The notes beneath the pieces are model-generated. The model saw nothing but the letters and a program-made list of their open reading frames with translations, did no database searches and was not told the DNA's origin. Position numbers and translations under genes: made by a program. From the IMG/VR virus record IMGVR_UViG_3300045988_123958: a stretch of DNA of 64,000 nucleotides; one strand, written 5' to 3'. This document shows positions 36,359-64,000 of the stretch, piece by piece. Numbering within the stretch: position 1 is the first letter of the stretch; each line of letters opens with the position of its first letter. This stretch comes from a virus.

Positions 36359-36366
36359 TTTAAATA

Positions 36367-36398
36367 AAGGGTTTGGTCTTAATAGGCCAAACCCTTTT
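36367..36398 (+). terminator. rho-independent terminator
   Basis: AAGGGTTTGG...CCAAACCCTT hairpin followed by TTTT. Confidence 0.65.
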
Positions 36399-36446
36399 AG
36401 TATTGATTAAAAAGATTTTATAAATAATAGAAAGGAGTCGATTATC

Positions 36447-37028
36447 TTGCCTAATACATTAAATAAATATGTAAAATTTGTTAGAGGTTCTAAAACTGCT
36501 TTTGAAAGTTTAGGAACCAAAAGAGACAATGATACTTTATATTTTATTTATGGGGAAAATGATTCTTCTGGAGAACTTTATTTAGGTAGTCGTTTAATTT
36601 GCGGTGGAATTAGTTCCGGGGGTAAGTTAAGCGATTTAAGTGATATTGTTCTCAATGAAGTTAAAACAAATCAAGTTTTAATTTATAATGAAGAACAAAA
36701 AAAATGGGTTAATTAGGGCTTAGAAAATAATGAAACTTTAATTAATTCTATTGTTGAAAAATTATCTACGGAAGAAAATTTAGCTAAGTTAGCTCCTGTT
36801 TTTAAGGGTACAGTTCCAGGCTTAGTTCCAGTTTCTTTGCATGAAACTAAAGGAAAACATATTCTTACTGATGCTGGTACATGGATTGATATGCCAGTAG
36901 GAACATTAACTTAGGGAGATATTGAAACAATTAATATAGCTAATAAATATTTAGTAGATAAGGGTCCTGATAATTTGGTAACTCGTGTTGAAGCGGTTGA
37001 ACAAACTGTTTCTTGGGCTGATATTTAA
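36447..37028 (+). CDS. fiber N-terminal anchor-domain protein (short paralog)
   Basis: Track ORF 36447..36716 extends through 2 TAG to 193 codons. Its N-terminus is paralogous to those of the genes at 37043, 38809 and 49240. Confidence 0.5.
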
Positions 37029-37042
37029 AGGAGTGAAAAAAA

Positions 37043-38689
37043 TTGAACGTTAAGTTTTTAAAAGGCTCTCAAGCCGAATTTGAAAAGGTGGCAGGTAGAT
37101 ATAAACCTGGTGCGTTTTATTTAGTAATTAATGATAATAAGTCCGCAAAAGACTATAAAAAACCAAGCCGTCTTTATTATGGTGTAGATGAAAATAATTG
37201 CGTTCCTGTAAATCAAGGTATTAATGTAGTTGATACTATCGCAGGTTTACCTCAAAGTTTTAGTCAAAATACTGCTGGCGAATTTTATTATGTAAAAGAT
37301 AAAAATATCTTATGTATTAATAATGGTAAAGGTTGGATTCAAACTAACACTGATACTGTTTTAGATACTAGTAAAAAAAATAGTAATGTATCAGTAAATA
37401 GTAATCCTGAAAAACCTAATGGAGTTTCTATAACTAATACTATTGCTGATAGTAGTGGTAATATTATTACTGAGACTTATGATATTATTGGTAGCGATTA
37501 TATTCAAGTGGAAGCAATTCCTGCTGTTGATGATAAAGGTGTAGACACTGTTAAACTGAGTTTAAAAGGAATTAATTATCAATTAAGCTCTTCTTTAAGT
37601 GATAAAACTTTAAATGTTAATTTAAAAAATGCTGATACTGATGCGGGTAATTTTAATATTATCGCTGGCAGTAATGTTAATATTGCTGAAAACCCCGCTG
37701 GTAGTTATACTTTAAGTGTTGATAAAGCAGTTAATGATATCAACGTAATTAACCACGCTAATGGTACTGGTTTTACTGCTTCTATTAGCGGTCCTGGTGT
37801 TGAAGGAGCTGGTAATAGTACAACTTTATCTGCTGATATTGATCCAGAAATTGCTTTAGAAGGCAAGGATGGCAGTTATAAATTTAAAGATGGTGTTTTA
37901 ACTCTTCCTGTTTATAGTAAACAAGATATTGATAATCAGCTTAGAACTATTAACGCTATGATATTCCGTGGCGGATTCTAGGTTAAAGATGGAGCCATTA
38001 TTTATGATAGCGCTGATATTACTGAAATTGCTGAAGGTAATACCTTTATTTATACTGGCGCTGAAGACACTCTTTGGAACGGTCATTACTTACGTCCTGG
38101 AGATTTAATTATCGCTTCTGGCAAAGAAGTTGATGGTGTTATTACTGGTACTATTAGTTGGACTTATGTTCCTTCTGCTGATGATCCTGTTACTGAGGTC
38201 GAAGGAGCTGATGATAACAGTAATGCTGGATTTATTATTAAGCTTGGTCCTACTAAAGAACTTTTAAATTATGTCCTTAAAGGTGAAGAAGGTATTGAGT
38301 TAGAAGTAAAGGCTCAAACTGGTTCAGTAGTGAAAGAAATTACTATTAAACACAGTAATACTTTAACTGTGAATACTCCAGTCTCTCAAAATTATGCCGA
38401 TGAGTAGACTATTGTTATTAATGAACCAACTGAAATTGATGCTCAAGGCCATGTAATTAAATCTACTAAAAAAACATTTACTGTAAAGAATACTCACCAA
38501 GAAATTGCCAACGCAGATTATACAGTAAATGGTACTGATACTTTAATTCCTAATCTTAAAGTTGCTGGTGCTGATCTTGAAGGTAAACCACTTGTTTTCA
38601 CTAGTAATAGCTTAAAAGTTAATGTTTCTGCGGCAACTAAGACTGATGATGCTAAAGTTAATTTTGAGTTAGAGTGGGGAACATTCTAA
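37043..38689 (+). CDS. tail fiber protein (about 548 codons)
   Basis: TTG start; track ORF 37043..37981 extends through TAG. Shares the N-terminal anchor domain with the other fiber genes. Confidence 0.55.
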
Positions 38690-50299: not shown

Positions 50300-50707
50300 A
50301 TGGATCAAAATTTAATTAATCAATTGTTTCAAGTGTGTTTGATTCCTATGCTTGGTGCTTTAACCACTTTTATAGTTATTTGGATTAAAGCAAAAAGTGC
50401 AGAATTACAAAAGAAAACTAATAATGATATTTTAAATAAATATGTGCAAATGGCTACTGACACAATTACTAATTGTGTTATTGCCACCAATCAAACTTAT
50501 GTAAATTCTCTTAAAGAACAAGGTAAGTTTGATGAAGCTGCTCAAAAAGAAGCATTTTAGAGAACTTATCAAGCAGTATTGCTTATTTTAAGTGATGATG
50601 CTAAAGAGTATTTGAATAATGCTTTTGGTGATTTAAATAAATATTTACAAGAGAAGATTGAGTCTACAGTAAATAATTATCGTACTCCAAGTAATGATTT
50701 AAAGTAA
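50300..50707 (+). CDS. putative holin
   Basis: Track ORF 50300..50560 extended through 1 TAG to about 135 codons. Single N-terminal transmembrane helix (LIPMLGALTTFIVIWI) followed by a charged C-terminal tail. Confidence 0.45.
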
Positions 50708-50713
50708 TAAAAA

Positions 50714-50755
50714 TAAGGGAGACATTCTTAATTGAATGTCTCCCTTATTTTTTTT
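50714..50755. terminator. bidirectional rho-independent terminator
   Basis: AAGGGAGACATTC...GAATGTCTCCCTT hairpin flanked by A- and T-runs, between convergent genes. Confidence 0.7.
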
Positions 50756-51470
50756 ATCTGAATGGATTTTTCCATCGTCGATTAATTTCTTCATAGCCTT
50801 TTTTAGGAAAGTATAAAACTTCACCATTTTTGAAAGTTAAATTGTCTTTATTCATTATTTTAATTTGATTTAAAGTAATAATTAAACTTGGTGGGATAAA
50901 GACAAAATCTGGATGATAAACTAAAGTTCCTATATAATTTTCAAAAGAAGTTTTTAGAGTTTTACTATTTAGAACCTCATTTTCTAAATGATAACACAAA
51001 TTTCGTTTTTGGATATCAGCATATAATACTTTACCCAAATCAATTTTTACTTCTCCATTAGGAGTGTCTAAATATTTATATTCACGTCTTTTTTCTTCTC
51101 TAACTTCATGTAAAATAGAAAAAATTTTTTCTTTATTAGCAGGTTTTTTGACGAAGTTAAATGCCTTTACTTCATAAGAAGCTACTCCATAATTTATTTG
51201 AGAGGAAACAAAAATTATTTTTCCAATATACCCATTTGTTCTTAAGAGATGAGCTATTTCAATACCATCCATTTTTTTGAATGTAATCCCTAAAAAGATT
51301 GCATCATAATCAATATTAGAATCAATTAATTTTCCAGGATCAGTAAATTTATATACATATCCCGGCAAATTAAATTCTTTAAAATACTGATTTATTATTT
51401 CTTCCAATGAGTCATTTTGCTAATCACTATTGTCGCAAACACCTACGATAAAAATTTTAATCACCTTCAT
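50754..51470 (-). CDS. LytTR-family response regulator with atypical receiver (Gly at phospho-acceptor position)
   Basis: Track ORF 50754..51407 extends 5' through one in-frame TAG to an ATG at 51468-70, giving MKVIKIFIVGVCDNSDQQND... (about 238 codons). The receiver domain keeps the acidic pair, the Ser/Thr and the Lys, but has FLGI where FLDI is expected. C-terminal LytTR DNA-binding domain. Confidence 0.65.
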
Positions 51471-51564
51471 TTTGTTTATTTTAGAAAAAATTTTTCTATT
51501 TCTATATTTTCTCTATATTATAATTATACAAAAATTTTTAAATATTGTAAAATAAAAAATTATA

Positions 51565-51620
51565 AAGTGTCAAATTTATTTAATTTTAAGTAAGTGAAAT
51601 TTTTATTCAAAAAGTGTCAG
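51565..51620. promoter_or_regulatory. direct repeats AAAGTGTCA (x2, plus an AAGTG half-site) in a divergent AT-rich promoter region
   Basis: AAAGTGTCA occurs at 51565-73 and 51611-19, with AAGTGAAAT at about 51592, between the LytTR gene and the 51714 operon. Confidence 0.35.
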
Positions 51621-51713
51621 TAATTATAATATATTTACACAAAATAAAAGTCATATAATAATGAAAGGAAAAGATAAAACCTTTCATTATTATATTTCTC
51701 CGGAGGTAATAAC

Positions 51714-52160
51714 ATGAATACTTATGGTTATCCATAGCAGTAGTATCCAATAGGTAATAATAGACCTATTTATGGAACAACTGCTACGCCTGTGATTCAA
51801 AATAATACTACATAGCGAATTAGACCCGTTGCTTCTTTAGAAGAGGTTCGAGCTATGAATATAGATTTTGATGGTTCAGTTTTTTATTTTCCTGACTATG
51901 CTAATCGTAGAATTTATACAAAACAAATAAATATGGATGGAACAGCTTCTATTAATATGTATGAATTAAAAGAAATCCCAAATTCTTCTTAGCCTAATAA
52001 TGACTATATAACACGAGAAGAGTTTAATACTACCTTAACTTCTATTAAAGAAGTATTTGCATAGATCATGGGATCTAATAACGCGGTTGCGCCGTCTTAG
52101 GAATCGGGTTAGCCAGCTCAATAGCAACCAACAGAAAGCAAACCGCAGTTTAATTTTTAA
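51714..52160 (+). CDS. Pro/Gln-rich hypothetical protein
   Basis: ATG after a GGAGGT RBS. About 148 codons with 7 TAG. Q/P-rich at both ends. Confidence 0.45.
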
Positions 52161-52172
52161 GGAGAGTTTCAA

Positions 52173-52421
52173 ATGACACAATCAATGAATCCAATACAAA
52201 TTATTGCTATGATTAAAAACGGTCAAAATCCATAGCAATTAGTTTTATCTATGCTTGAAAATCAAATGGGTGGAACGCCAATGGGCAATAATTTATTACA
52301 AATGGCACGGAACGGTCAATCCGATGACATTGAAAAATTTGCTCGTAATTTGTTTGAATCAAGAGGTTTGAATTTCGATAAAGAATTTAATAGTTTTAAG
52401 TCCCAAATAGGGTTTAAATAA
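52173..52421 (+). CDS. small Gln/Asn-rich hypothetical protein
   Basis: 82 codons with 2 TAG and a GGAGAG RBS. Confidence 0.4.
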
Positions 52422-52447
52422 ATAAAATTATAGAAAGAGGTTTTGTT

Positions 52448-53320
52448 ATGTTTAATTACAATTATCCAATGAGCACGCCGAATTATTCATTATCTGATAT
52501 TGCTGCGGCTTCTGGAAATGGCTATCGTAATAATGATGGCGGAATGTGGGGAGACGGAGCATGGTGGATTATTATTCTGTTCTTATTCTGCTTCAATGGT
52601 TGGGGCGGTAATGGCTGGGGTAATAATGGTTCTGGTTTCCAAGGCACTACAACCCGAGAAGAATTGAACTATGGTTTCGACATTAGTGATCTTAAATCTG
52701 GAGTCAATAGTTTAAATTCTAGCCTTTGTAATGGTTTTAGCGGAGTAAACACTAATCTTTTAAGTGGTTTTGCTAATCTTGCTGAAACTAATAATGCCAA
52801 TACTCGTGCTTTACAGAGCGATATCTGCAATATGGGTATGAATAATATGCAAAATACCTTTAGTATTACTCAGGCCATTAATGCCGATACTGTAGCAGGT
52901 ATGCAGAATACTAATAATTTAACTCAGCAATTAAGTAATATGGCAGCTACTAATGCTCAATGCTGCTGCGAGAATAAACAATTAATTCAATCTAGTTTTG
53001 CTGATCTTAATTACAATCTCGCTAGTATTGCTTGCCAGAATCGTCAGACTACCGTTGATGGTGTCCGCGATATTATTGACAACAATAATGCTAATATGCG
53101 TTCTATTCTTGACTTCCTTGTTCAAGATAAAATTGAGACTCTTACCAGTGAAAATAGCACTCTTAAAAATTAGATTTCTCAAAATCTTCAAAATGCTTAT
53201 CTTATTGATCAGTTGTCTCCAAAAGCAACTCCTGCTTATATTGTTGCTAATCCTTATACCGGTGTTAGTTATACTAGCTATGGATGCGGATATGGTTCAG
53301 GATGCGGTTGCAATTCCTGA
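52448..53320 (+). CDS. Gly/Asn/Trp-rich single-pass membrane protein with N/Q-rich coiled region and Cys-rich C-terminal tail
   Basis: Track ORF 52448..53173 extended through 1 TAG to a TGA near 53318. Transmembrane segment AWWIIILFLFCF flanked by GWGGNGWGNNG repeats. C-terminus is GCGYGSGCGCNS. Confidence 0.5.
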
Positions 53321-53341
53321 TTGAAGAAAGAAGGTTAAATT

Positions 53342-53632
53342 ATGGAAATAACGGCTAATGCTTTACAATCAGTTGCTACTGGTTCTAATGTAGTATTCAC
53401 TAACACAGCTGTTGCTGGAAACTGTTCCATAATGTATCGCGAGGGTAGCGGTCTAGTTACCCTCCGCGGTCTTACGAACGGTCAACGCAGAGCTCGTTTC
53501 CGCATTTCATTTGGAGGTAATATAGGACTTCCAACTACTGGAACTGCGGGTGCTATTTCTTTGGCTATAGCTATTAATGGAGAGCCAGTTACTACTTCTA
53601 CAATGATTTCTACTCCTACGGCTACTGGATAG
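53342..53632 (+). CDS. C1q/TNF-like (BclA C-terminal-domain-like) protein
   Basis: Track ORF 53342..53632 is extended through one in-frame TAG at 53630-32 and ends at TAA near 53762 (about 140 codons). Predicted all-beta Gly/Thr/Asn-rich domain resembling exosporium BclA C-terminal domain or C1q jelly rolls. The call rests on remembered family features, not a search. Confidence 0.35.
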   Translation: MEITANALQSVATGSNVVFTNTAVAGNCSIMYREGSGLVTLRGLTNGQRRARFRISFGGNIGLPTTGTAGAISLAIAINGEPVTTSTMISTPTATG

Positions 53633-53777
53633 TTTAATAATGTTTCACGTGCTTTATTCCTTGATGTGTTAGGCGGTTGTTGCACTCAAATCAGTATTGA
53701 AAACACGAGTTCATAGGCTATTGATGTTGAAAATGCCAGCTTAATTATCGAGAGAGTGGCATAAGGAGGTTTTTTAA

Positions 53778-54320
53778 ATGTGCGATAAATTCCAAGAAAT
53801 TAAAAAGCAATTATTAACTCAAGTAGAAAGCCAAATGGCTCATTTAGAATGTGTTGATACAAAGGAAATGGGCGAAGTAATAGATATGATAAAAGACCTT
53901 GAACAGGCTATTTATTATTGCACTATTACTGAAGCTATGAATGAATTACCTGAAACCACACATTATTATACTGAAAAATATAAATCTCCTCATAAAAAAA
54001 GAATTTATAAACCCATGACATATAATTATGATTGGGAAGATTATGATTATGATGAACATGAATATGAGATGCCAACGAGTGGGAAATCTCATGAAGCCCA
54101 TGATAGCAGAGAGGGTCGTAGCGGCGTCCACAGAAAGATGTATATAGAAGCCAAAGAACTTCATAAAGATAAAAGCGTTTAGATAAAAGAGTTAGACAAG
54201 TATCTTCAAGAATTAAGCTCTGATATAGTAGAAATGATTGAAGATGCTTCTAATGATGAACGTTCTTATATGGAGAAGAAAATCTAGGCTTTAGCATCTA
54301 AAATTGGATCTATGAATGGT
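53778..54320 (+). CDS. acidic His/Tyr-rich hypothetical protein
   Basis: Track ORF 53778..54182 extended through 2 TAG. About 181 codons. Confidence 0.4.
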
Positions 54321-54615
54321 TAATATTAATAATAGGAATTGGAGGATACTATTAGTATCTTCCAATCATCCTATGTTAATGCGACCTTCTGGAATATATA
54401 CTTTAGGTTCTTGTGATGATCCTACTTCAACAATTTATATTAATGAAAATATTAGCAATAAAAAATTAAAAAAAGTATTAGCGCATGAATTAACTCATGC
54501 TGCTATTTTTAGCTATGATATTTCATTAAAACCAGAAGAAGAAGAATTGATTGCGGATTTGGTGGGAACTTATGGTGAAGAAATTATAAATAATACTAAT
54601 CTTTTATTTAAATAG
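54316..54615 (+). CDS. HExxH zincin-like putative metallopeptidase (ImmA/SprT-like)
   Basis: Intact 99-aa ORF with the motif LAHELTHAAIF. Confidence 0.4.
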   Translation: MVNINNRNWRILLVSSNHPMLMRPSGIYTLGSCDDPTSTIYINENISNKKLKKVLAHELTHAAIFSYDISLKPEEEELIADLVGTYGEEIINNTNLLFK

Positions 54616-54627
54616 ATAAAAAAAATA

Positions 54628-54670
54628 AGGGAATGAAACTATTTTTGTTTCATTCCCTTATTTTTTTTTA
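54628..54670. terminator. bidirectional rho-independent terminator
   Basis: AAGGGAATGAAAC...GTTTCATTCCCTT hairpin flanked by an A-run and a T9 run. Confidence 0.7.
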
Positions 54671-55099
54671 TTAGTCTTTAAGCGGTAATTTTAAAGTCCT
54701 TTCATAGTACTCTTTAGCCTATCCATTTCCACCTAAACCTGCATATACTTTAAAGAATTCGACTAACTATTCATACTGCCCTGAAGTCATATATCCTTGT
54801 TTTAAGAAACTTTGACATAATTGAATTAATCTAAATCTATAAGAAGCAAGAATTATTTCAATATATTTCTCACTACTTTTCTTTTCTTCCAATACGAAAG
54901 ATCTTAAATTATTTAAATCTTCTTTAATTGGAGCTATATGTTCTTCAATTAATTCTTCTAATTGTTCATCTTTCTTTTCTTCTGCCAATTTTTGATACAT
55001 TTTCATTTGGGTATAAATATATCTACAAAAGGCTAAGAGGCCAGCAGAAATAAGACCAAAAAATATTTCTATAAAATGCTAGGCAATAAAAGCAGACAT
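54671..55099 (-). CDS. small membrane protein
   Basis: Track ORF 54767..55006 extended in both directions through TAG. ATG at 55097-99 after a GGAGGT RBS. N-terminal transmembrane helix. About 142 codons. Confidence 0.45.
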
Positions 55100-55156
55100 A
55101 AAAAATACCTCCTTCCACTTAACTTCTAATATATTTTAAAAGAAGGGAAGGAGGAT

Positions 55157-55690
55157 TATTTATTTAAGGCCTATTTATTACTCCCAATTAAAATCATTAT
55201 TGGAACTTTCTTTCGTGAAATATGCGGTATATAAACATATGGCATCACATATATCGTCATTGGCTTTTATATTATATTTTTGCTATACAAAATCAATATC
55301 AGCTTGTTTAAGAGTTTCACGTTTAATACTGCGACCGGTTTTAATTCCGAGTTTTTTGCGCCATTCACTTGCCTACATCAGCTCTAATGTTTTGGAAGTA
55401 AATGAAGAATTAACTCCATGGGCGCCTAACATTACTGCGCCTTGAAGCCACATTAATAAACGTGAAGTATCAGAATATCCATAAGTTTCAGGATGAACAT
55501 CTTCCGCTACTATCTTCTCTATATTATATTTTTTTACTAATTCAATAATCTAATCTTGTATTTTTTGTATTCTATCTAAATTATTAGAGGAAACCGCGGT
55601 TAGCAGTCCATAATCTAACATTTCTCCCTCATTATTAGATACACAATAACCAGTAGATTTAGTGGACAAATCTAAAAAGAGGATATTCAA
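55157..55690 (-). CDS. RuvC-like Holliday junction resolvase
   Basis: TTG start after a GGAGGTAATTAC RBS. 177 codons with 4 in-frame TAG. Contains ILFLDLSTKSTGYCV near the N-terminus and DDICDAICLYTAYF near the C-terminus. No piece is long enough to appear in the ORF track. Confidence 0.55.
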
Positions 55691-55723
55691 GTAATTACCT
55701 CCTTTCTTTAAGGTTTGAGGTAA

Positions 55724-56242
55724 TTACTTTGAAGTTGAACCAAATCCTCCAAGGCGGTCACCAGAAGCATTATCGTCTTCGGTGATTAAATAAGGTTTAA
55801 TAATACCTTGACCAATAACATCACCTTTATGAAGTTGAATATCAAAAGGAGATAAATTAATCATTTGAAAATAAATATGTCCTTCATTATCAGGATTATT
55901 ATAATAGTCTGCGTCAATAATCCCAACGCCATTAGCAAGAATAAGCCAATATTTTAAAGGACAAGAACTGCGAACTGATAATTCAAGATATGTATTATCA
56001 TTTAATTCACATTTAATTCCAGTAGGCACAAGAGTTGGTTTTGCTTTAAGATTTTTTGTCATATTACCCATATCTTCAAGAGAGATTGAATCAAAATAAC
56101 GTGTTGGAAATCTATTTAGCAAATTCTTATATGCTGGAATTACAACATCTTCTGCTACTGTAAAATCATAGCCTGCGGATTTCGCTGTTTTTCTTACGGG
56201 CAAAACCGCGTCTGGATATTTGCTTACTCGTTCAAACTTCAT
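55724..56242 (-). CDS. dut: dUTP diphosphatase
   Basis: Intact 172-aa ORF with SAGYDF, GVGIIDADYY and GDRLGGFGSTSK motifs. Confidence 0.8.
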   Translation of the reverse strand: MKFERVSKYPDAVLPVRKTAKSAGYDFTVAEDVVIPAYKNLLNRFPTRYFDSISLEDMGNMTKNLKAKPTLVPTGIKCELNDNTYLELSVRSSCPLKYWLILANGVGIIDADYYNNPDNEGHIYFQMINLSPFDIQLHKGDVIGQGIIKPYLITEDDNASGDRLGGFGSTSK

Positions 56243-56490
56243 TAAAAGCTTACCTCATAATTTACATTAATATTACTAATAGGATCTTTTTCATCATTGA
56301 ATTTTTTAACAAGAGTGACTTGATACCATTCATCGACAATTTCGCCCTTAGCCTTTTTTTCTTTCTTCACTGAACTATACTTAGCTAAAATATATTTAGT
56401 TTCAGCCTTAGCCTCATCAATAAGCGCGGCCGCACTTTCCTCATTATCTACACGATAAACTTCTGTAGCACTTACAAGATACTTATTCAT
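56242..56490 (-). CDS. hypothetical protein
   Basis: Intact 82-aa ORF, tightly packed in the operon. Confidence 0.5.
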   Translation of the reverse strand: MNKYLVSATEVYRVDNEESAAALIDEAKAETKYILAKYSSVKKEKKAKGEIVDEWYQVTLVKKFNDEKDPISNINVNYEVSF

Positions 56491-56750
56491 TAACCTACCT
56501 CAACTTTAATTTCTTTTCTATTGGAATAATTTAAACTATTACTTTCATAAATTTTTGGAATTAATTCATTAATAAAATCTTCAATACCATATAAACGTAT
56601 AGTATCAGTATTATTCTTATAACAAGATGCTACTAAAACATTTGGAAGATCAGGAATACTACAAGTTCCAATACTTACTGCCATTCCATCATCATAAGTT
56701 TTAAAAACATTTTGTTCCATTGAAAATAAATTAATATTACAAACAATCAT
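56490..56750 (-). CDS. hypothetical protein
   Basis: Intact 86-aa ORF, contiguous with its neighbours. Confidence 0.5.
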   Translation of the reverse strand: MIVCNINLFSMEQNVFKTYDDGMAVSIGTCSIPDLPNVLVASCYKNNTDTIRLYGIEDFINELIPKIYESNSLNYSNRKEIKVEVG

Positions 56751-57284
56751 TTAATTACACTCCACAATACCAGCATCATATTGGAATAAATAAAAACAAT
56801 AAGATTCATTATCAATATTTATCCAAATTTCAATAGCATTATCATTATTTTTTTCCCAACCAACAATACTTCCTAATTCTTGGCAAAGTATAATTACCAT
56901 ACTCGCTACAGAACCAGTTGAAATAATTGGAGGAATATTTTTGTGAAAAATGGTATAATAATTATAATCTTTACATAATAACATATAATACATTCCATAT
57001 TCACTTATTTCATTAATACTACTCATTAATTTATTTAATTCTTCTTCATTAATTGGATCCATTTGTATCATAATATTTTTATTAAAATCATATAAATTCA
57101 TTCCAGTTTGAAATGTAGTAGAATTATCTGACAAATTATTAGTAGTAGTTCCTATCATTACCCATTCATTTCCAGTGTAACAATATTGTTTCTGATCTTC
57201 ACCAGAAATGGCAATAGTTCCTTCTTCGAATTTACGAGGAGAATTATATAATTCTCCCATCGTATTAGTATAAAAAACATTCAT
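56751..57284 (-). CDS. hypothetical protein
   Basis: Intact 177-aa ORF. Confidence 0.55.
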   Translation of the reverse strand: MNVFYTNTMGELYNSPRKFEEGTIAISGEDQKQYCYTGNEWVMIGTTTNNLSDNSTTFQTGMNLYDFNKNIMIQMDPINEEELNKLMSSINEISEYGMYYMLLCKDYNYYTIFHKNIPPIISTGSVASMVIILCQELGSIVGWEKNNDNAIEIWINIDNESYCFYLFQYDAGIVECN

Positions 57285-57365
57285 TGTTATATAATCTCCT
57301 ATCTATTTCATAGAAAAATTATATCACAAATTTTCTTTTTTGTCAAGTTTTAAATTAATAATGTT

Positions 57366-57818
57366 CTAATTGCGGGAACCGCGTAAAGGTAAAGTAATAT
57401 CTCTTTCCTTTTGGATATATGGTCCATCAATTAGATAATCAGCGGTTTTTAATATATTCTTAATTCTAATATTATTACTATTCTTCAAATCATCATAAAC
57501 ATATCCAGTCCATATATATATTTTAATGTTTGGATATATTTTTTTAATTTCAGTAATAATTAAATTAGTTAAAAATTCATTTTCAGGGCAGAGAGGCTCT
57601 CCACCCATAATACAAAGATTACGCTCAACATTATTCGCATTAATAGCAGTAATTAATTCATCTAATACTTTATTAGTGAATTCTTTACCACCATTAAAAT
57701 CCCACGTTTCGGGGTTTTGGCACCCTTCACAATGGTGCGGACACCCTTGTGTAAAAAATGATACACATACTCCGGGTGCCGCTGCCAAATCATTCTTTAT
57801 AATTCCTGCATATTTCAT
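57366..57818 (-). CDS. nrdG: anaerobic ribonucleotide reductase activating protein (radical SAM)
   Basis: CPHHCEGC (Cx3Cx2C) motif; overlaps the end of nrdD. Confidence 0.8.
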   Translation of the reverse strand: MKYAGIIKNDLAAAPGVCVSFFTQGCPHHCEGCQNPETWDFNGGKEFTNKVLDELITAINANNVERNLCIMGGEPLCPENEFLTNLIITEIKKIYPNIKIYIWTGYVYDDLKNSNNIRIKNILKTADYLIDGPYIQKERDITLPLRGSRN

Positions 57819-60085
57819 TCTAACACTCCTGTATGTTTCACTCTTGCTTCAACTTCTTTTTGTTTACCCCAGTTAAAAGCAGTTTTATAATTGCCTGTAA
57901 GATAACCAGTCACACGACGCAATTGTTGAATATTGTGGCTTCCGCACACAGGACAAGAATCATTAAACTCATCACAATAACCACATTCAAGGCAAGTATC
58001 ATTAGGAACATTTACTGCGAAATAAGGAATATCGTGGTCCATTGCATAATTAACAATAGTTTCAAGAGCATCAATATTGTGTTTTACAGTAGAATCAAGT
58101 TCAACATAAGTAATACATCCTGCGGATGAATAGCCAGTCAGCTCAGATTCAATATCAATTTTTTCAAACGGACTCATTTCTTTCCACACTGGAACATGAA
58201 TACTATTAGTGAAAAATTCTCTATCACTAACATTAGGAATAATTCCATACCTTTCTTTAAATTTTGTCATAGCAGTATAACATAAATTTTCTGCGGGTGT
58301 ATAATAAACTCCAAAATTTAATTTATATTTTTCTTTATACTCGGCGCATCTATCTTTAAATAATTGTTCAATTCGTTTAGCTAATTCCATTCCTTCTGAA
58401 GTGGTGTGGTCTTTACCAATAAGAATTTGAAGAGTTTCAGCTAAACCTAACTGACCAATAGCAAGAGTTCCGTGCTTAAGAGCGGAACGAATTCCTTCTT
58501 CTGGAATATAACCTGCCATAACGTTATTTTCATACATAAATTTCGCGGAGCCTGGGTCTTGAGAGCAAATCCATTCAAAACGTTCCATTAATTGGATACG
58601 TGCTTCATTGATTTTTCTATCAAGTAAAGACATAAATCGTTCTACACCAATTTTAGTCCGTTCTTCTTGGGACAACGATTTATAGTCCTCCCAATTATCA
58701 TTTTCGTTTAGGGTAACGGCCATCATCGCAAGAGTTGGAAGAATAATAGTAACTGGACAAATATTTCCACGTCCATCTTTAAGCTGGCCGAATCCATTGA
58801 TATCCCAGCCGTTTGCGGTTCTACATCCCATTGTAGAAAAATAAGTGCGAGGATCATTAATATCATATCCCGCATTACCAGACCAATCAACATTTGCATA
58901 ATTAGGATAAAGGCGTCTCGCGGTGCTTTCTAATGCTAATCTATATAAATCATAGTTAGGATCACCTAATTTGCGGTTAACCCCTTTCATACATTGGAAA
59001 ATTCCACAAGGAAAAATTGAAGTTTTATGTAATTTACCAAGACCTTCAATAGAAACATCTAATAACGCCTTAGTTACCATTCTGCCTTCAGGTTTAGTAC
59101 AAGTGCCATAGTTAATACTTGTAAATGGTAATTGATTGCCACTACGAGATTGTAAAGTATTAAGATTATGATAAAGACCTTCTGCAGCTTGATGAGTTTC
59201 GCGAGTAGTCATTTTCATAGCATATTTATATGCTTTTGGAAATGATTTATAAAAATCATCATCAATAGGAGTTTCTTTACTATAACAACCATCATATTTG
59301 CTCATATCTAATCCTTCATATAAAAATTCAATACCATCATTGAAATGTTTAAAGAAAGATTTTCTTACATAAGGAACCATAGTCCAATCTAAATGAGTAG
59401 CACTAACTCCACCAAACTAACAAAGACTTTGGATTTGAAAAATAACAGCAATTAATTGAAACGCTGTATTAATTGAACCCGCAGGACGAACATCAGCTTG
59501 ACGAGTATTAAATCCATTAGTGAGTAAATCATCAAAGGGAATACTTAAACAATTATGAGAACCAACATAATAAGAATCAAGGTCATGAGTATATATCATA
59601 TTATCAATATGATTCTTACGAGCCATAGGGGAAAGTAAGTAATCAAGTGCAAGTTGTTTGGTGACAACACTACTTGCTTCACCTATACGGCCACCAAATG
59701 AATGTTCATCAACATTAGCATTTTGATTTTTTACATTATTACCATCGAGCTTTTCACGAATTGCTTTAATAAAATCATCTTTTTTATTACGAGCAACTTC
59801 TTTTTTATATCTATATCTGATATAAGCACGAGCAACATCGCGTCGCTCAGAACGCATTAAATAATCTTCAATCCAATCTTGAAGATCTTCTACTCCAACG
59901 CTTCCATCAGGGAAATGATTTATTTGTCTTTCAATGTCTTCCGCGATATCTTTCGCAGTATCATCTTCATATAGTTTACCATCAACTTCAATAAATGCTT
60001 TATTTATTGCGTTAATAATTTTCTTTTTATTAAATTGAGTTATACTTCCATCACGTTTAATAATATACAATTTTTTTGCCTCCAA
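57815..60085 (-). CDS. nrdD: anaerobic ribonucleoside-triphosphate reductase (single gene read through one TAG)
   Basis: Track ORFs 59417..60085 (ATP-cone N-terminus) and 57815..59380 are in the same frame, with a TAG at 59417-19 and a 12-codon open linker. C-terminal Zn ribbon CLECGYC...CPVCG and glycyl-radical motif RVTGYL. Confidence 0.85.
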
Positions 60086-60144
60086 ACTAAATATAGTAGT
60101 TCTTTTAGAATATTCTACTATATTTAGATTTTGTTAGTAAATAA

Positions 60145-60750
60145 TTATTTATCTTGGTCCATTTCCGCCCATTGCTTAACTCTTTGAGTTAAAAGATTAA
60201 CAATATTATTATAATCTTCTAATGTTTCATTTGTCACAATATTGCACTTAATATCATTCATTAGTTGAAATTGAATTTCATCAGTAGTATATCTTCTAAT
60301 AATTTCATTTACATCAGGATTTTCTTCTCTGTTTAATTGCCTAATTAAACGTGTCTTTCCTTTAGCGGTGATATAATATATCTCCAATTCAATTCTATCA
60401 TCTTTAAGAAGACTTATAATTCCTTCGGGATTAAAAACACCAATATTAACTTTACTATCAGACAAACTATCAATACTTGTGCCATAATACCAATTATTAA
60501 AAGAAGTGGTTTCTAACATTTTATTTTCATCAATTAAAGTTAAAAACTAATCATCTGAAACAAAATGATAATTTTTATCTGCTATTTCTTTTTCACGCTT
60601 TGGGCGCGTAGTGTGGCTTATAATAGGATTTAGATATTCTTCTAATTGGGAAAAGGTAGCCATCATTAGGCTATCTTTTCCTGCACCAGATTTTCCACAT
60701 AATGCAATAATTTTATACATCTTCTTCAATTCCTCCTTGATAACGAGCAT
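60145..60750 (-). CDS. gmk: guanylate kinase (read through one TAG)
   Basis: Track ORFs 60547..60750 (P-loop GKSGAGKDS, TTRPKRE, HFVS) and 60145..60519 (NWYYGTS) are in the same frame, separated by a TAG at 60547-49. Confidence 0.8.
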
Positions 60751-62190
60751 CTTTTAAAACTAAATCGCCATTGGATAAAATTTCATCAATTTTATATAAT
60801 TGATGCCCTCCAGAAGAAGCATATTTTTTTGACATGAAATTATCTCCATTGCGGATTCCAGAGACTACAATCATATTTCCGCGATTAAACCAAGATTTTT
60901 CAACAATATGTTTGGTTCCATCTGCACCGCGCTCTGAAATTTGTTTATCAAACAAACTAAAATATTCTTTTCTAAACTTTACTTCTACAGGACCAGTAGT
61001 AGTAAGAATGGTTACAGTGCTTTTAGTTTTATTTTTGGCAATACAAGTTCCGCAAATTTTAAATAACTTATAAATATGAATAGTATGATTTCCTTTGGTA
61101 AAACTTCTATCAATTATTGGATCTTCTGGAAGCTTAAAGAAATCTACAAATCCATATTTATCATTGTTAATATTGTTCAATTCATGAGTATGATAATAAT
61201 AACAAAGAACTTCCATTTCCCAGGCGGATAAATTATTTTTATTAGCGTATTTATCCCAATCATCTTTAAATATTTTTATATTCAGATTATTCAAAATTTC
61301 ATCTTTATTATTAGCAATCCAAGTGCGGAATATGTCCATCCACTTTTGGTATATACCATTCCAAACATTTTCACTTAAAGAATAATTAGTTCCATCAAAT
61401 TGAATATTATTATCTTCTCCAATTTCTACTAAAAAATTAATGGCTCGTTCATCAAGTTGATATAGACCATTATTTTTTGTAGTTTTACAAATTGCTTTTA
61501 AATATCTATTAAATTCATAAATACGGCGAGCCATAATTTGATTTTCATTTTCTTCTGGAAGAAGATCATACTTCATAAGTCCGCCCATATTTTGAAGAGT
61601 AATTCTTTTCTTTTTGTCGCAGGTTTCCCAAATATACCAAATCATTAATTCTTTTCTATCCATCATATTATCAAAGGCTCCACCTTTAATAAGAGAAATC
61701 ATAGCTTGTTTACCTGGCTTAATACGATATAAAAATTCTTTAGGATTTGAATAAGGACGATTAGCAATGATTGTATTAACTAATTCATCACCAACATTTA
61801 GCATACCTTTTAATCCAAAAAGAATTTTATTATTTTCAATATCAGGGGCAAATCCAAATTTAGATTTGTTAATATCAGGAAGACCTACTTCAATTCCTGC
61901 TTTTTGAATATCACTAATAGCCTTGGCAATTTTTCCATAATCGGTGGCTGCGGTTTTGCGGATTTTGCCACTTTTGTCAGGAAGATCTTCAAATGTTACT
62001 CCATTAGCTAAATCATCGCCTTCAGGAGCATAAATATCGACAATCTCTTCTTCGCTATTATCTTCAAGGGAACCACTATTAACAATTAAACAAGCGGTAT
62101 CCCAATAGATAGGATTAAAATGAATTACTAAGTAAATCATTTGAATTGCTACAAATGAATAAGGTAGACTATGATTTAAACTAAATGCAT
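60713..62190 (-). CDS. dnaE: DNA polymerase III alpha subunit (DnaE-type), exon 2
   Basis: Track ORF 60713..62203. The region DAFSLNHSLPYSFVAIQ aligns with the conserved GYGFNKSHSAAYALVSYQ motif. The first four track codons (MRIT) are inferred to be intronic. Confidence 0.7.
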
Positions 62191-63331
62191 CAGTTATTCT
62201 CATATTTCTATGAGGGCTGGACTATCTTTTACTATAATATATATAAATTATAGCACACCATTTCGAACTACGTATCAATAGTAGTCCTACTTCCGGTCTC
62301 ACCCGGAATAGTCTCTACAATATTTATCTTAATGGATATTTTAAATTTTCGTCTTTATCAATAGCACCTATATTAACTCTACGCACTGTTTCATCAGATG
62401 TTCCAGTTAATTTTACAATATCTTTATATAGGAGATTAGTATTTAATAAATATTCTTTTATTAATTGTCTTTTATATTTTTGTGGAGTTATTTTTCTAAT
62501 AGGATATTCGCCTTTATAATATCCTTTTTGCAATGTTCCATAATTAAATTTTTTAATAGTTGATTCTCCTAAATTATATCGTTGTGCTAGTTCTTTAAAA
62601 GTTAGTTCAGGTTTTATTAAATCTTCAATTAAAGCATCATAAATATCATTAGAAATTCGATATCTACATAAAGGATATATTTCTTTTTTATTATAAAAAT
62701 ATTTTCCAGAATTGATACCTGAAATAAAAGTTTTAGATATGGGATAATATTCTTGTATTTTTGAATAAGATGTTTCATCTTTAATCATTATTTTTATCTT
62801 TTCAACATCTTCTTGTGTTAAAAAAGACTTCCAACTATTATTTCCGCCTTCTAAAACATTATATCCCCATTGAGTTAATAAACTTTGTTCTTTTTTAATC
62901 CAATAACTTTCACGTTCATTTACTAAATCATATGTTTTAGCATCTGTTATAATTTCAATAATTTCAATTTTAAAATTGTCATATCCATATTTACGAATTG
63001 CTTGATGGATTTTATCATTATAATTTACACTATTAGGATTAAAAGAACAACTTTTATGTTCATTAACTCTTCTTTGAAAATTATTAGTCTAACCTATATA
63101 TTTTTTATTATTAATTAAATTCGTATATTTATAAATATAAAATATCATTTTATTTCTCCTTTAAAATATATTAAAGGACCATTAAGACATTTATCACGGG
63201 ATTGGTATATATTAATGATTCCTTCATTAATACTTAACTTTCCCCGTTAGCAAATTAATAAGTTTAGCCCCAAAAAGGGCTATTAATTTACCCCTGTGAT
63301 AACAGGTTAGGTGTGTAAGGGCAAGCTATTT
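62191..63331 (-). mobile_element. group I intron (about 1,141 nt) carrying a GIY-YIG homing endonuclease gene, inserted in dnaE
   Basis: Exon 1 ends with ...UUAGGGU, which pairs with the internal guide GCCCUUA at 63316-22, giving a U.G pair at the 5' splice site. The terminal G at 62191 precedes exon 2 (AUGCAUUU). The splice gives the in-frame sequence ...PQLG-Y-AFSLNHS. Confidence 0.65.
62324..63148 (-). CDS. GIY-YIG homing endonuclease (intron-encoded)
   Basis: ATG after AAAGGAG. MIFYIYKYTNLINNKKYIG[TAG]TNNFQRRVNEHK continues in frame into track ORF 62324..62788. About 274 codons. The TAG falls at the canonical YIGQT position. Confidence 0.75.
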
Positions 63332-64000
63332 ACCCTAATTGAGGAGCAACTGCAATTTCCCAAAAGTATTCAGCAGATTTTTCATTATCAAATTTACTAA
63401 ATACTTGTTCTTTTAATTGTGGAATTTTAGCCATTTGCTTTTTAGCAACAATCTTACGCGCAGTATTAGCTTCACCAAGAGTAAAATGAGCTACATCCAT
63501 AAGAATTTCCATCATTTGCTCTTGAATAGGACAACATCCATAATATTTATCACAATGCTTATGCATCTTATCAATTAATTCTTGCGGAAGATGCTGAGCC
63601 TTCATTTCATCATCAAATACTTTAATACCCGAATGTTGAATGCGATAATATCTATCTTGCTGTGATTCCTTACCTTTTTCAGACATAAGACGCATCATAG
63701 CATTGGCCGCCGTCATTTCCATAGGGTCTTGGGGTTTAAGGCGTTTTGCTATTGCCAAACCGACTCCTGTAGAAAATTGGAATACATCTAATACATCACC
63801 AGCAGCAAGGTGGTCCCAAATTGCTTGATCAGTTGTATCTATTACTTCTGGATGAATATATTTATTATAAAATTCTCGTAAAGATAATTCTGGAACCTAC
63901 TTATCTTTTAGAAGTAATTGATAACAAGTAATAATTTTATCAGAAGCTTCAGTTACAAGGAAGTCATATTTTGTGTCTCCAGCAGCTTCCGCTTTATGAA
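63332..64000 (-). CDS. dnaE: DNA polymerase III alpha subunit (DnaE-type), exon 1, 5' portion outside the window
   Basis: Track ORF 63330..63758 (FTLGEANTARKIVAKKQ finger-like region). The frame continues upstream through a TAG and includes a KYDFL motif. Confidence 0.65.

What the first reader, a model, noticed from the sequence alone, without database searches (positions are those of the whole stretch)
50754..51713. Phage-encoded orphan LytTR regulator with Gly in place of the phospho-acceptor Asp, facing a repeat-bearing divergent promoter
Extending track ORF 50754..51407 through one TAG gives a complete CheY-like receiver plus a LytTR DNA-binding domain. The acidic pair (CDNSD), the Ser/Thr (VSS) and the Lys (KKP) are conserved. 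The expected FLDI acceptor site reads FLGI. This suggests a phosphorylation-independent regulator, or one controlled by something other than a kinase. No histidine kinase or autoinducer-peptide gene is adjacent. The 240-bp AT-rich region between this gene and the 51714 operon contains two exact AAAGTGTCA direct repeats 46 bp apart plus an AAGTG half-site. These could be LytTR-type binding sites controlling the accessory operon or the regulator's own promoter.
Basis: partly seen in the sequence, partly recalled or inferred. Interest (0 to 1): 0.7.

Follow-up and report, generated by a model that had tools for sequence, protein, structure and literature searches.

The report
Phage LytTR regulator lacking phospho-acceptor Asp
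A large gut phage that reads the TAG stop codon as glutamine encodes a two-component-type transcription factor that has lost its phosphorylation site, has no kinase nearby, and sits next to conserved copies of its likely DNA-binding site, so it most likely works without phosphorylation to control itself and a neighbouring phage operon.

Summary
The gene is on the minus strand at 51470..50754 (238 aa). Its single in-frame TAG (codon 17) is an ordinary Gln codon, because the whole window is a TAG-recoded phage. Profile and fold evidence give a CheY-like receiver plus a LytTR domain; the best structural match is full-length ComE. Gly61 aligns with the phospho-acceptor Asp (Asp in 122 of 138 homologues). 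The "acidic pair" is only half kept (D13, N14). S89 and K109-P110 are kept.

The gene is a syntenic core gene of a clade of 110-200 kb recoded phages and is under purifying selection. Across the clade the active site decays further. No kinase gene is seen within about 10 kb in any relative examined.

The intergenic repeats are real and unique in the window. They are footprint-conserved and match published LytTR direct repeats in sequence and spacing. One repeat lies about 11-12 bp upstream of the -35 position of each divergent promoter.

Best reading: a phosphorylation-independent pseudo-receiver LytTR regulator that autoregulates and controls the divergent operon. Binding and the direction of regulation are inferred, not shown. 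I class it as a new variant of a known kind, of moderate interest.

The parts
50754..51470 (-). Regulator CDS: 238 aa, ATG at 51470, TAA stop at 50756..50754. The start codon is somewhat uncertain. There is no SD before the ATG, an SD-like AAGGTG lies in codons 2-3, and relative L031 has TTG at the same place.
51420..51422 (-). In-frame TAG, codon 17, decoded as Gln. Every lineage down to 33-34% identity except L016 has a TAG at position 17, 18 or 20.
51096..51458 (-). Receiver (CheY-like) pseudo-receiver domain, about residues 5-125. Key residues are D13, N14, G61, S89 and K109-P110.
51288..51290 (-). GGG codon for Gly61, at the C-terminal end of beta-3, in the column of the phospho-acceptor Asp.
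50769..51080 (-). Divergent LytTR DNA-binding domain, about residues 131-234. It carries a PSL(I/L)I(N/T)L motif where many LytTR proteins have an (H/R)xS(F/Y)(L/V)VN-type motif; two examples were seen here, HQSFLVN in L008 and HKSFLIN in LIBA2945.
50709..50752 (.). Bidirectional intrinsic terminator (19-bp stem) shared with the convergent holin gene (50300-50707).
51523..51551 (-). The regulator's own sigma-70-type promoter, TTTACA-17-TATAAT (11 of 12 matches). It is conserved in the relative with 68% protein identity.
51563..51571 (-). Repeat A (GACACTTTA on the minus strand), 11 bp upstream of the regulator's own -35.
51590..51598 (-). Repeat B (TTCACTTAC). The core CACTTAC is invariant in 15 distinct sequences. 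It lies 18 bp from A and 11 bp from C (12 bp in L001).
51610..51618 (-). Repeat C (GACACTTTT). ACACTTTTT is invariant in five lineages and always lies 34 nt from the -10 of the divergent operon.
51654..51659 (+). Conserved TATAAT -10 of the divergent plus-strand operon. There is no recognisable -35 at 17 bp, which suggests dependence on an activator.
51655..51693 (+). Perfect 14-bp inverted repeat (hairpin) that overlaps or follows the -10. A stem is present in most lineages, with different sequences.
51714..54636 (+). Divergent six-gene operon, the putative target. It encodes phrog_21718, an 82-aa protein, phrog_16490, phrog_20016, a 181-aa protein and an M78-like HExxH peptidase.

Best explanation
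The gene encodes a pseudo-receiver (aspartate-less) response regulator of the LytTR class. It is a conserved core gene of a clade of TAG-to-Gln recoded phages with genomes of 110-200 kb, probably infecting Clostridia.

Shown: the protein has lost the phospho-acceptor Asp (Gly61) and the second Mg-binding acidic residue (Asn14). No kinase gene is seen nearby.

Inferred: its activity is not switched by phosphorylation and is set by how much protein is made. It is transcribed from a near-consensus host-type promoter (TTTACA-17-TATAAT). Its translation needs TAG to be read as Gln at codon 17. The LytTR domain binds the three direct repeats (core CACTT) in the 243-bp divergent spacer. Repeats C and B form a canonical 9-11/12-9 LytTR pair about 12 bp upstream of the missing -35 of the plus-strand operon promoter. 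Repeat A lies 11 bp upstream of the -35 of the regulator's own promoter. The most likely outcome is activation of the -35-less operon promoter at 51714 together with autoregulation. The geometry supports this; neither the direction of regulation nor the binding has been shown.
For: Domain architecture and fold.

Acceptor column: Asp in 122 of 138 homologues, Gly only in this clade.

Clade-wide table:
- Acceptor Gly in 26 of 28 loci at 44% identity or more, encoded by GGG, GGA or GGT.
- The second acidic residue is never Asp (it is N, K, R, Y or S).
- L014 also loses both acidic residues and the conserved Lys.
- L016 has Glu at the acceptor position.

The gene is functional. dN/dS is 0.07 (WIN vs L006) and 0.20 (WIN vs L001). 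Synteny is conserved, between a convergent holin and the divergent operon, down to 36% identity.

No kinase: and the precomputed Pfam tables. In contrast, the ordinary bacterial relatives examined have Asp and an adjacent GHKL kinase.

Cis elements:
- The exact 9-mer occurs only twice in 64 kb, both copies here.
- This is the only CACTT-N14-17-CACTT pair in the window.
- ACACTTTTT occurs exactly once per related phage locus, always in this spacer.
- The footprint shows invariant repeat cores and promoter hexamers among 15 distinct sequences.
- The distance from repeat C to the operon -10 is fixed at 34 nt in three lineages, although the sequence between them is not conserved.
- The most divergent lineage (L014) has a different motif, TTCCAACGG, at the same place. 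A second copy lies in the regulator's leader. These are the only two exact copies in 20.8 kb. The site therefore co-varies with the protein.

The layout matches published LytTR sites, for example ACCACTTAC-12 bp-ACCACTTAT-10 bp-TTTACA-17 bp-TATAAT (PMC6193735, Tables 2 and 3, read).
Against: - There is no binding or expression data, so activation versus repression cannot be decided.
- Pfam LytTR is below its gathering cut-off. The DNA-binding assignment rests on profile and fold homology.
- The repeats face the regulator gene, so relative to the plus-strand operon they are inverted compared with canonical LytTR-activated promoters.
- Repeats B and A are poorly conserved in the L010 and L016 lineages.
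- Two contigs (L037, L043) have Asp at the acceptor position. Phosphorylation by a host kinase cannot be excluded for those, and only flanks, not whole genomes, were searched for kinases.
- Repeat C could instead be recognised by another phage late factor.
Confidence: 0.6

Rival explanations
1. The regulator targets the host. It would bind host LytTR boxes (quorum-sensing, bacteriocin or autolysis regulons) constitutively, or titrate a host kinase or response regulator through its pseudo-receiver. The phage-borne repeats would serve only for autoregulation.
For: The closest cellular homologues are ordinary LytR/AlgR-family regulators of Clostridia. The repeat core CACTT is the generic LytTR core found in many bacteria (PMC6193735). 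Phages are known to carry agr-type genes (PMC11945551).
Against: The best-conserved repeat (C) keeps a fixed distance to the phage operon's -10 in three lineages. The motif co-varies with the phage protein in L014. No host genome is available to test for sites. The protein is only 20-30% identical to cellular regulators.
Confidence: 0.15
2. The regulator is a repressor or timer rather than an activator. It would occupy the spacer to shut off the divergent operon, its own promoter, or both, until late in infection. The perfect 14-bp palindrome over the operon -10 would be a further operator.
For: Repeat A lies close to the regulator's own strong promoter. In L014 a second copy of that lineage's motif lies downstream of the regulator's promoter, in its leader, which is a repressor-like position. 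A strong inverted repeat overlaps the operon -10.
Against: The operon promoter lacks a -35, and the repeat pair sits 11-12 bp upstream of where it would be. That is the geometry of LytTR activators (PMC6193735). LytTR regulators bind direct repeats, not palindromes.
Confidence: 0.2
3. The TAG is a real stop. The gene would be either a 217-aa N-terminally truncated ORF (TTG at 51407) or a decaying pseudogene, and the Gly would be just part of that decay.
For: Under the standard code the listed ORF is 50754..51407, 217 aa. One related contig (L034) carries a frameshift.
Against: TAG is read as sense throughout the window and never ends a gene. The upstream in-frame beta-1 strand and the C-D motif are conserved in every lineage and are modelled with high confidence. 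dN/dS is 0.07-0.20. Synteny is conserved across many contigs.
Confidence: 0.03
4. The regulator is still controlled by phosphorylation or another signal. It could be phosphorylated by a host or distant phage kinase at another residue, or switched by a ligand, a partner protein or redox through the receiver domain.
For: S89 and K109-P110, which relay the switch in true receivers, are retained in most lineages. Two contigs have Asp at the acceptor position. Known pseudo-receivers can be regulated by ligands, redox or partners (PMC12632262). Complete genomes were not searched for kinases.
Against: The acceptor is Gly in 26 of 28 clade loci and the second acidic residue is never Asp. L014 lacks both acidic residues and the Lys. 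No kinase lies within about 10 kb in any lineage.
Confidence: 0.12

Closest known systems
ComE (Streptococcus pneumoniae) and AgrA (Staphylococcus aureus): receiver-LytTR quorum-sensing response regulators
   Same: Same two-domain architecture and fold. Full-length ComE 4cbv is the best structural match (E 3e-14) and a profile match (E 2.8e-16). The predicted targets are 9-bp direct repeats with an 11-12 bp spacer just upstream of a promoter.
   Different: About 18% identity. The phospho-acceptor Asp is replaced by Gly and the second acidic residue by Asn. There is no adjacent histidine kinase or peptide gene. The NCBIfam AgrA and LytR models score about 30 bits against cut-offs of 375-400. 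The protein is phage-encoded.
Pseudo-receiver / aspartate-less receiver (ALR) atypical response regulators, e.g. HP1043, ChxR, GlnR, CmrT
   Same: It is recognised as a receiver but lacks conserved active-site residues. It is an orphan and presumably active without phosphorylation (PMC12632262, PMC4395418).
   Different: Term searches of these two reviews found neither 'LytTR'/'LytR' nor 'phage'. Here the output domain is LytTR and the gene is a core gene of a phage clade. Active-site decay is graded across lineages.
LytTR regulatory systems (HdrRM / BrsRM type)
   Same: Phosphorylation-independent LytTR regulators that auto-activate through direct repeats about 10 bp upstream of -35. The repeat sequence is nearly the same (ACCACTTAC versus TTCACTTAC / GACACTTTT) and the promoters are of the TTTACA-17-TATAAT type (PMC6193735).
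   Different: Those regulators have no receiver domain and are co-transcribed with a membrane inhibitor. This gene has a full pseudo-receiver, is monocistronic, and ends at a terminator.
Orphan 'two-component response regulator' of Clostridioides phage LIBA2945 / LIBA6276
   Same: A phage-encoded orphan receiver-LytTR protein with no adjacent kinase.
   Different: It keeps the ED pair, the acceptor Asp, Thr and Lys. Identity is only about 21-30%. It lies in an anti-repressor/BRO region, and the phage is not recoded.
TAG-recoded (code 15) gut phages such as Phass-1 and crAss-like phages
   Same: TAG is used as Gln throughout. The major-capsid-like protein is 50% identical to that of Phass-1. 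The genome class is 110-200 kb and the host is Firmicutes-like.
   Different: Phass-1 shows no homologue of this regulator at E<=1e-3. There is no nucleotide-level match to any deposited phage.

Membership tests
Response-regulator receiver domain (PF00072) | (beta/alpha)5 CheY-like fold recognised by the family model | tested here: met
   Pfam 34.3 bits against a cut-off of 30.2. The AF2 model has five strand-helix units at pLDDT 91.9. Receiver domains match at TM 0.75-0.90.
Response-regulator receiver domain (PF00072) | Phospho-acceptor Asp at the end of beta-3 | tested here: not met
   Gly61 (GGG). The column holds Asp in 122 of 138 homologues. Pairwise alignments to MrkE and 6m8o place G under D.
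Response-regulator receiver domain (PF00072) | Acidic pair after beta-1 (Mg2+ site), Thr/Ser after beta-4, Lys after beta-5 | tested here: inconclusive
   D13 is kept but the second residue is N14 (Asp in 110 of 138). S89 and K109-P110 are kept. Relatives have K, R, Y or S at the second acidic site, and L014 lacks the Lys.
Classical two-component system | Cognate histidine kinase encoded adjacent or in the same operon | tested here: not met
   Neighbours have no kinase domains. tblastn with two kinases was negative. No HATPase or HisKA within about 10 kb in four related loci. Whole genomes were not searched.
LytTR DNA-binding domain (PF04397) | Match to the family model above the gathering score | tested here: not met
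   15.4 bits against a cut-off of 22.6, E 0.022.
LytTR DNA-binding domain (PF04397) | LytTR beta-fold, and homology by profile | tested here: met
   The family profile aligns to ComE 4cbv over residues 2-232 (E 2.8e-16). Many homologues carry a precomputed PF04397 hit. Foldseek matches ComE full length at E 3e-14 and the LytTR domain 3d6w at TM 0.71.
LytTR regulators (functional signature) | 9-bp direct repeats with a 12 +/- 1 bp spacer about 10 bp upstream of -35 | tested here: met
   C-11-B (12 in L001). A lies 11 bp from the regulator's own -35. C lies about 12 bp from the -35 position of the operon promoter. Compared with PMC6193735 Tables 2 and 3. Actual binding was not tested.
AgrA / ComE quorum-sensing systems | Orthology to AgrA or LytR, and linked agrBCD/comCD-type genes | tested here: not met
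   NCBIfam AgrA scores 28.8 bits (cut-off 400) and LytR 34.3 (cut-off 375). No linked kinase was found. Peptide and AgrB genes were not specifically searched.
Pseudo-receiver / aspartate-less receiver | [quoted passage not shown] | tested here: met
   G61 and N14. Clade-wide decay is shown. The definition follows PMC12632262.
LytTR regulatory system (HdrRM type) | LytTR-only regulator co-transcribed with a membrane inhibitor protein | tested here: not met
   The protein has a full receiver domain. The gene is monocistronic and is followed by a terminator and a convergent holin gene.
Genetic code 15 (TAG = Gln) phage | In-frame TAG throughout conserved genes, TAG not used as a stop, suppressor tRNA | tested here: inconclusive
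   In-frame TAGs occur in 37 of the 48 genes listed and none ends in TAG. TAG aligns to CAA or CAG in orthologues. No tRNA gene lies within this window, so the suppressor was not seen.

The most novel reading that the evidence does not exclude
The regulator couples transcription to the phage's genetic-code switch. Its mRNA comes from a host-type promoter, but the conserved early TAG (codons 17-20 in every lineage) lets full-length protein appear only once TAG is being decoded as Gln. The constitutively active pseudo-receiver then turns on a -35-less operon whose first gene is itself packed with TAG codons (8 in 148). This would be a transcription factor whose input signal is suppressor-tRNA activity rather than phosphorylation.
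Probability: 0.15. Interest if true: 0.75.

Novelty: new variant of a known kind. Interest (0 to 1): 0.5.

Why it matters
Pseudo-receivers make up several percent of all receiver domains, but how they are controlled is largely unknown (PMC12632262). No LytTR-type example was found in my term searches of two reviews.

This clade offers a compact natural case. The regulator is orphan and phage-borne, and its probable binding sites lie next to it. Close relatives differ only by Gly versus Asp at the acceptor position. More distant relatives have progressively lost the rest of the active site.

The clade could therefore show how a two-component regulator is converted into a phosphorylation-independent phage gene-expression factor. 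It could also help define promoter architecture and gene timing in uncultured TAG-recoded gut phages. If the early TAG gates translation, it would give a direct test of the proposal that stop-codon recoding times phage gene expression.

Tried and rejected
- A single-sequence AF2 model was useless (pLDDT 35). It was replaced by a model built on a 58-sequence alignment.
- Megablast of 14 kb of the window against deposited phages found nothing.
The 96%-identical P0001 was used instead.
- The 'Bacteriophage sp.' tblastn hits turned out to be ordinary bacterial LytTR regulators with Asp and an adjacent kinase. They are not phage relatives.
- RNAalifold found no consensus structure for the operon leader, because the hairpins misalign. 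Single-sequence folds support a strong stem only in the window (z -4.3) and a different fold in L016. The hairpin is therefore reported only as a side observation.
- I first took the regulator's promoter for an extended -10. The scan shows no TG at the right position.
- I first read Gly61 as being under purifying selection for Gly. The GAT (Asp) alleles in L037 and L043 argue for relaxed constraint instead.
- The function of the divergent operon could not be assigned. Pfam, PHROGs, PDB and PADLOC gave unknown-function families or nothing, and the homologous cassette in Butyrivibrio virus Ceridwen is annotated as hypothetical.
- The apparent 1.6-kb non-coding gap at 36359-37957 is coding once non-ATG starts are allowed.
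Full report
**Context.** The window is 30.5% GC. Under the standard code its ORFs are broken up. When TAG is read as sense, summed ORFs of at least 100 aa rise from 41.9 kb to 73.2 kb. Recoding TGA instead gives 49.2 kb in shorter ORFs, and recoding TAA gives many short ORFs (233 ORFs, 119.6 kb, shorter mean length) rather than longer genes. With TAG as sense, a coherent gene map appears. A long plus-strand structural, tail and lysis block runs from 42 to 54636; one 2739-aa gene in it holds 77 TAGs. A minus-strand block runs from 54671 to 63722. In relatives this block includes dUTPase, NrdG, NrdD, guanylate kinase and Pol III alpha. No gene ends in TAG. TAG makes up 35% of Gln codons in the plus-strand genes and 11% in the minus-strand block. 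In orthologues, TAG aligns mostly with CAA or CAG. No tRNA gene lies in the window. The capsid-like protein is 40-50% identical to proteins of about 135-140 kb Enterococcus phages and of the TAG-recoded phage Phass-1 (PMC10607447). There is no nucleotide-level match to any deposited phage.

**The gene.** The ORF lies on the minus strand at 51470..50754 and encodes 238 aa, with TAG at codon 17 (51422..51420) and a TAA stop. A 19-bp-stem bidirectional terminator (50709-50752) separates it from a convergent holin gene at 50300-50707 (phrog_13712, E 6e-38). Pfam finds Response_reg above its cut-off (34.3 bits against 30.2) and LytTR below it (15.4 against 22.6). PHROGs gives a full-length match to phrog_8810, of unknown function (E 3.6e-23). 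HMMER against 1.84 billion representative proteins finds 7424 homologues. The cellular ones are receiver-LytTR regulators of Clostridia named LytR/AlgR family, and many carry a precomputed PF04397 hit. A 40-sequence family profile aligns to full-length ComE (4cbv) over residues 2-232 at E 2.8e-16. An AF2 model built on a 58-sequence alignment has pLDDT 91.9. Its best PDB matches are full-length ComE (E 3e-14), many receiver domains (TM 0.75-0.90) and the LytTR domain 3d6w (TM 0.71). NCBIfam ranks LytR, BtsR and AgrA first, but at about 30 bits against cut-offs of 246-400. The protein therefore belongs to the class but is not an orthologue of any named regulator.

**The active site.** In a MAFFT alignment of 138 full-length homologues, the acceptor column holds Asp 122 times, Gly 5 times (all in the phage clade), Glu 3 times and other residues 8 times. 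Pairwise HMMER alignments place DAIFLGI under DAIFLDI of MrkE and under DIIFLDV of 6m8o. In the model, Gly61 ends beta-3 (strand 57-61), D13 follows beta-1, S89 ends beta-4 and K109 follows beta-5. The canonical pair is D13-N14, and Asp occupies the second position in 110 of 138 homologues.

**The clade.** Exact-protein look-ups and pattern scans recovered the following relatives:
- 17 contigs at 93-98% identity, 110-200 kb long, mostly from one metagenome.
- One contig at 85% (L031).
- A 68% lineage (L001-L005).
- A 45-47% lineage (L010-L013, L036, L037, L043).
- A 36% lineage (L014).
- A 43% partial lineage (L016).
- More distant phage homologues (L015, L038, L039, L041).

Wherever flanks are available the gene is syntenic. 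It lies convergent with a holin-sized gene of about 129-136 aa and divergent from the same small-gene operon, with the NrdD/NrdG/dUTPase block nearby.

tabulates the active site:
- WIN-type: DN / G / S / K.
- L031: DK / G / S / K.
- L001: DN / G / S / K.
- L010-type: DR / G / T / K. Two contigs of this lineage (L037, L043) carry Asp (GAT) in place of Gly (GGT).
- L014: SY / G / T / Y, so both acidic residues and the Lys are lost.
- L016: SS / E / G / S.

The more distant phage homologues keep DD plus Asp, and the orphan regulator of C. difficile phage LIBA2945 keeps ED plus Asp. The gene is under purifying selection: dN/dS is 0.07 for WIN against L006 and 0.20 for WIN against L001.

The pattern is a conserved fold and DNA-binding domain with graded decay of the phosphorylation pocket and a Gly/Asp polymorphism at the acceptor position. 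This is what is expected if phosphorylation is no longer used. From my own knowledge, not tested here: Lys or Arg at the second acidic position parallels the CheY D13K substitution, which blocks phosphorylation but activates the protein.

**No kinase.** The ten neighbouring proteins have no kinase domains. tblastn with two AgrC/LytS-type kinases, taken from bacterial relatives, found nothing in the window. The precomputed Pfam tables show no HisKA or HATPase within about 10 kb in four lineages. By contrast, the two ordinary bacterial relatives examined (contigs labelled "Bacteriophage sp.") have Asp and a kinase immediately downstream. Complete phage genomes were not searched.

**The spacer.** The spacer is 243 bp at 16% GC. 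Read on the minus strand, which is the regulator's strand, the layout is:

repeat C GACACTTTT (51618..51610) - 11 bp - repeat B TTCACTTAC (51598..51590) - 18 bp - repeat A GACACTTTA (51571..51563) - 11 bp - TTTACA (51551..51546) - 17 bp - TATAAT (51528..51523) - about 52-nt leader - ATG.

On the other side, repeat C lies 34 nt from a conserved TATAAT (51654-51659). That hexamer precedes the plus-strand operon and has no recognisable -35, so C ends about 12 bp from where a -35 would be.

Statistics:
- The exact 9-mer TGACACTTT occurs twice in 128 kb of both strands, both times here.
- This is the only CACTT-N14-17-CACTT pair in the window (0.33 expected by chance).
- There are three same-strand AAGTG in 243 bp, against about 1.1 per kb window-wide.

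Conservation:
- Among 15 distinct sequences, including the 85% and 68% lineages, the invariant blocks are the repeat cores (ACACTTTTT, CACTTAC, CACTTT), TTTACAA, TTTTGTATAAT, and the operon -10 and SD.
- The spacings 9-11/12-9-18-9-11 are the same in the window and in L001.
- ACACTTTTT is present exactly once in every related locus down to the 43-47% lineages, always in this spacer.
- It lies exactly 34 nt from the operon -10 in three lineages, although the sequence between them is not conserved.
- In the most divergent lineage (L014) the same position holds CCGTTGG (TTCCAACGG on the regulator's strand). A second exact copy lies in the regulator's leader. These are the only two exact copies in 20.8 kb. 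The site changes together with the protein.

Published LytTR sites have the same grammar and nearly the same core, for example ACCACTTAC-12 bp-ACCACTTAT-10 bp-TTTACA-17 bp-TATAAT in Clostridium botulinum (PMC6193735, Tables 2 and 3).

**Mechanism.**
- Shown: the architecture, the loss of the acceptor Asp and of one Mg-binding ligand, orphan status within the flanks, conservation and purifying selection, and a conserved LytTR-type repeat array between two divergent promoters.
- Inferred: the protein binds those repeats without phosphorylation, activates the -35-less operon promoter, and autoregulates through repeat A.
- Unknown: the direction of regulation, the oligomeric state, any non-phosphoryl input, and the function of the target operon.

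The operon encodes phrog_21718, phrog_16490, phrog_20016 and an M78-like HExxH peptidase. A homologous cassette follows the endolysin in Butyrivibrio virus Ceridwen.

**The early TAG.** The clade lineages WIN-type, L031, L001, L010-type and L014, and the more distant L015, all have a TAG at the start of helix alpha-1: position 17 (WIN-type, L031, L001), 18 (L015) or 20 (L010-type, L014). L016 has none. Background turnover is fast. Of 30 TAGs in 12 neighbouring genes, only 5 are still TAG in L001, 12 are CAA or CAG, and 13 encode another residue. Persistence of an early TAG is therefore mildly unusual. However, Gln is a commonly conserved residue there in the wider family, and replication-module genes also contain TAGs. 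Translation gating by the code switch is a hypothesis, not a finding.

**Comparison and novelty.** Pseudo-receiver regulators, LytTR regulators and phage-borne agr or response-regulator genes are each known (PMC12632262, PMC4395418, PMC6193735, PMC11945551). My term searches of the two reviews on aspartate-less and pseudo-receivers found neither LytTR nor phage. Full-text searches found no description of a LytTR regulator in recoded phages. I class this as a new variant of a known kind. Interest is moderate: it is a well-defined and testable system, but not a surprise in principle.

Noticed in passing
window 1-64000: The whole window uses TAG as a sense (Gln) codon. 37 of the 48 genes listed contain in-frame TAG and none ends in TAG. 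TAG is 35% of Gln codons in the plus-strand late genes and 11% in the minus-strand nucleotide-metabolism block. Several genes, including the capsid-like 13549-14532, have no TAG at all. No suppressor tRNA lies in the window.
   Followed up: partly
window 51420-51422; L001, L010, L014, L015: An in-frame TAG sits within codons 17-20 of the regulator in every lineage except L016, although TAG codons turn over fast in neighbouring genes (5 of 30 retained between the window and L001). This could be translation gating or could simply reflect a conserved Gln.
   Followed up: partly
L037 and L043 versus L010 and L036: Within one sub-lineage of nearly identical regulators the acceptor codon is GGT (Gly) in some contigs and GAT (Asp) in others. 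This is a natural Gly/Asp pair at the phospho-acceptor position.
   Followed up: partly
window 51655-51693: A perfect 14-bp inverted repeat with an 11-nt loop (RNA fold -16.7 kcal/mol, z -4.3) starts inside or just after the operon's -10 and ends 9 nt before the SD. Most lineages show a stem there, with different sequences. It could be a 5' stabiliser, an attenuator or an operator.
   Followed up: partly
window 51453-51470: The start codon is ambiguous. The ATG at 51470 has no SD. An SD-like AAGGTG occupies codons 2-3 and is matched by GGAGGAG in L010 at the same place. L031 has TTG instead of ATG. L010 has no canonical in-frame start after its SD (ATT, ATC or ATA only).
   Followed up: partly
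L014 9860-9868 and 10038-10046: The most divergent lineage lacks the CACTT repeats. Instead it has two exact TTCCAACGG copies, one at the repeat-C position and one in the regulator's leader. This suggests co-evolution of the protein and its site.
   Followed up: partly
window 51714-54636; L017 (Butyrivibrio virus Ceridwen): The divergent operon carries a cassette (phrog_16490 plus phrog_20016, with 82-aa and 181-aa proteins and an M78-like HExxH peptidase at 54316-54636). Homologues of the 140-aa phrog_20016 protein occur in about 40-kb gut phages, and the Ceridwen homologue lies downstream of the endolysin, next to a similar-sized gene. Function is unknown. The first gene has 8 TAGs in 148 codons.
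   Followed up: partly
L042 (GTDB CAMELE010000001.1, 163,874 bp): A contig deposited as an 'uncultured Mollicutes bacterium' MAG carries a 95%-identical regulator in the same context. It is probably a genome of this phage clade that was mis-binned or mislabelled.
   Followed up: no
L034 6001-6716: One otherwise 95%-identical contig has a frameshift in the middle of the regulator gene. This is either an assembly error or a natural knockout.
   Followed up: no
window 36359-37957: This stretch looks like a 1.6-kb gene-free gap if only ATG starts are allowed. It is in fact open in two frames (36411-37028 and 37037-38689). The products share an N-terminal 'KF(L/V)(K/R)GS..(A/E)FE' motif, so they are probably tail-fibre-like genes with non-ATG starts.
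   Followed up: partly
L007, L008 (MT839679, MT838703): GenBank 'Bacteriophage sp.' contigs from human faeces that match the regulator carry ordinary bacterial LytTR two-component pairs (a regulator with Asp plus a GHKL kinase). They are probably bacterial DNA in a virome data set.
   Followed up: partly
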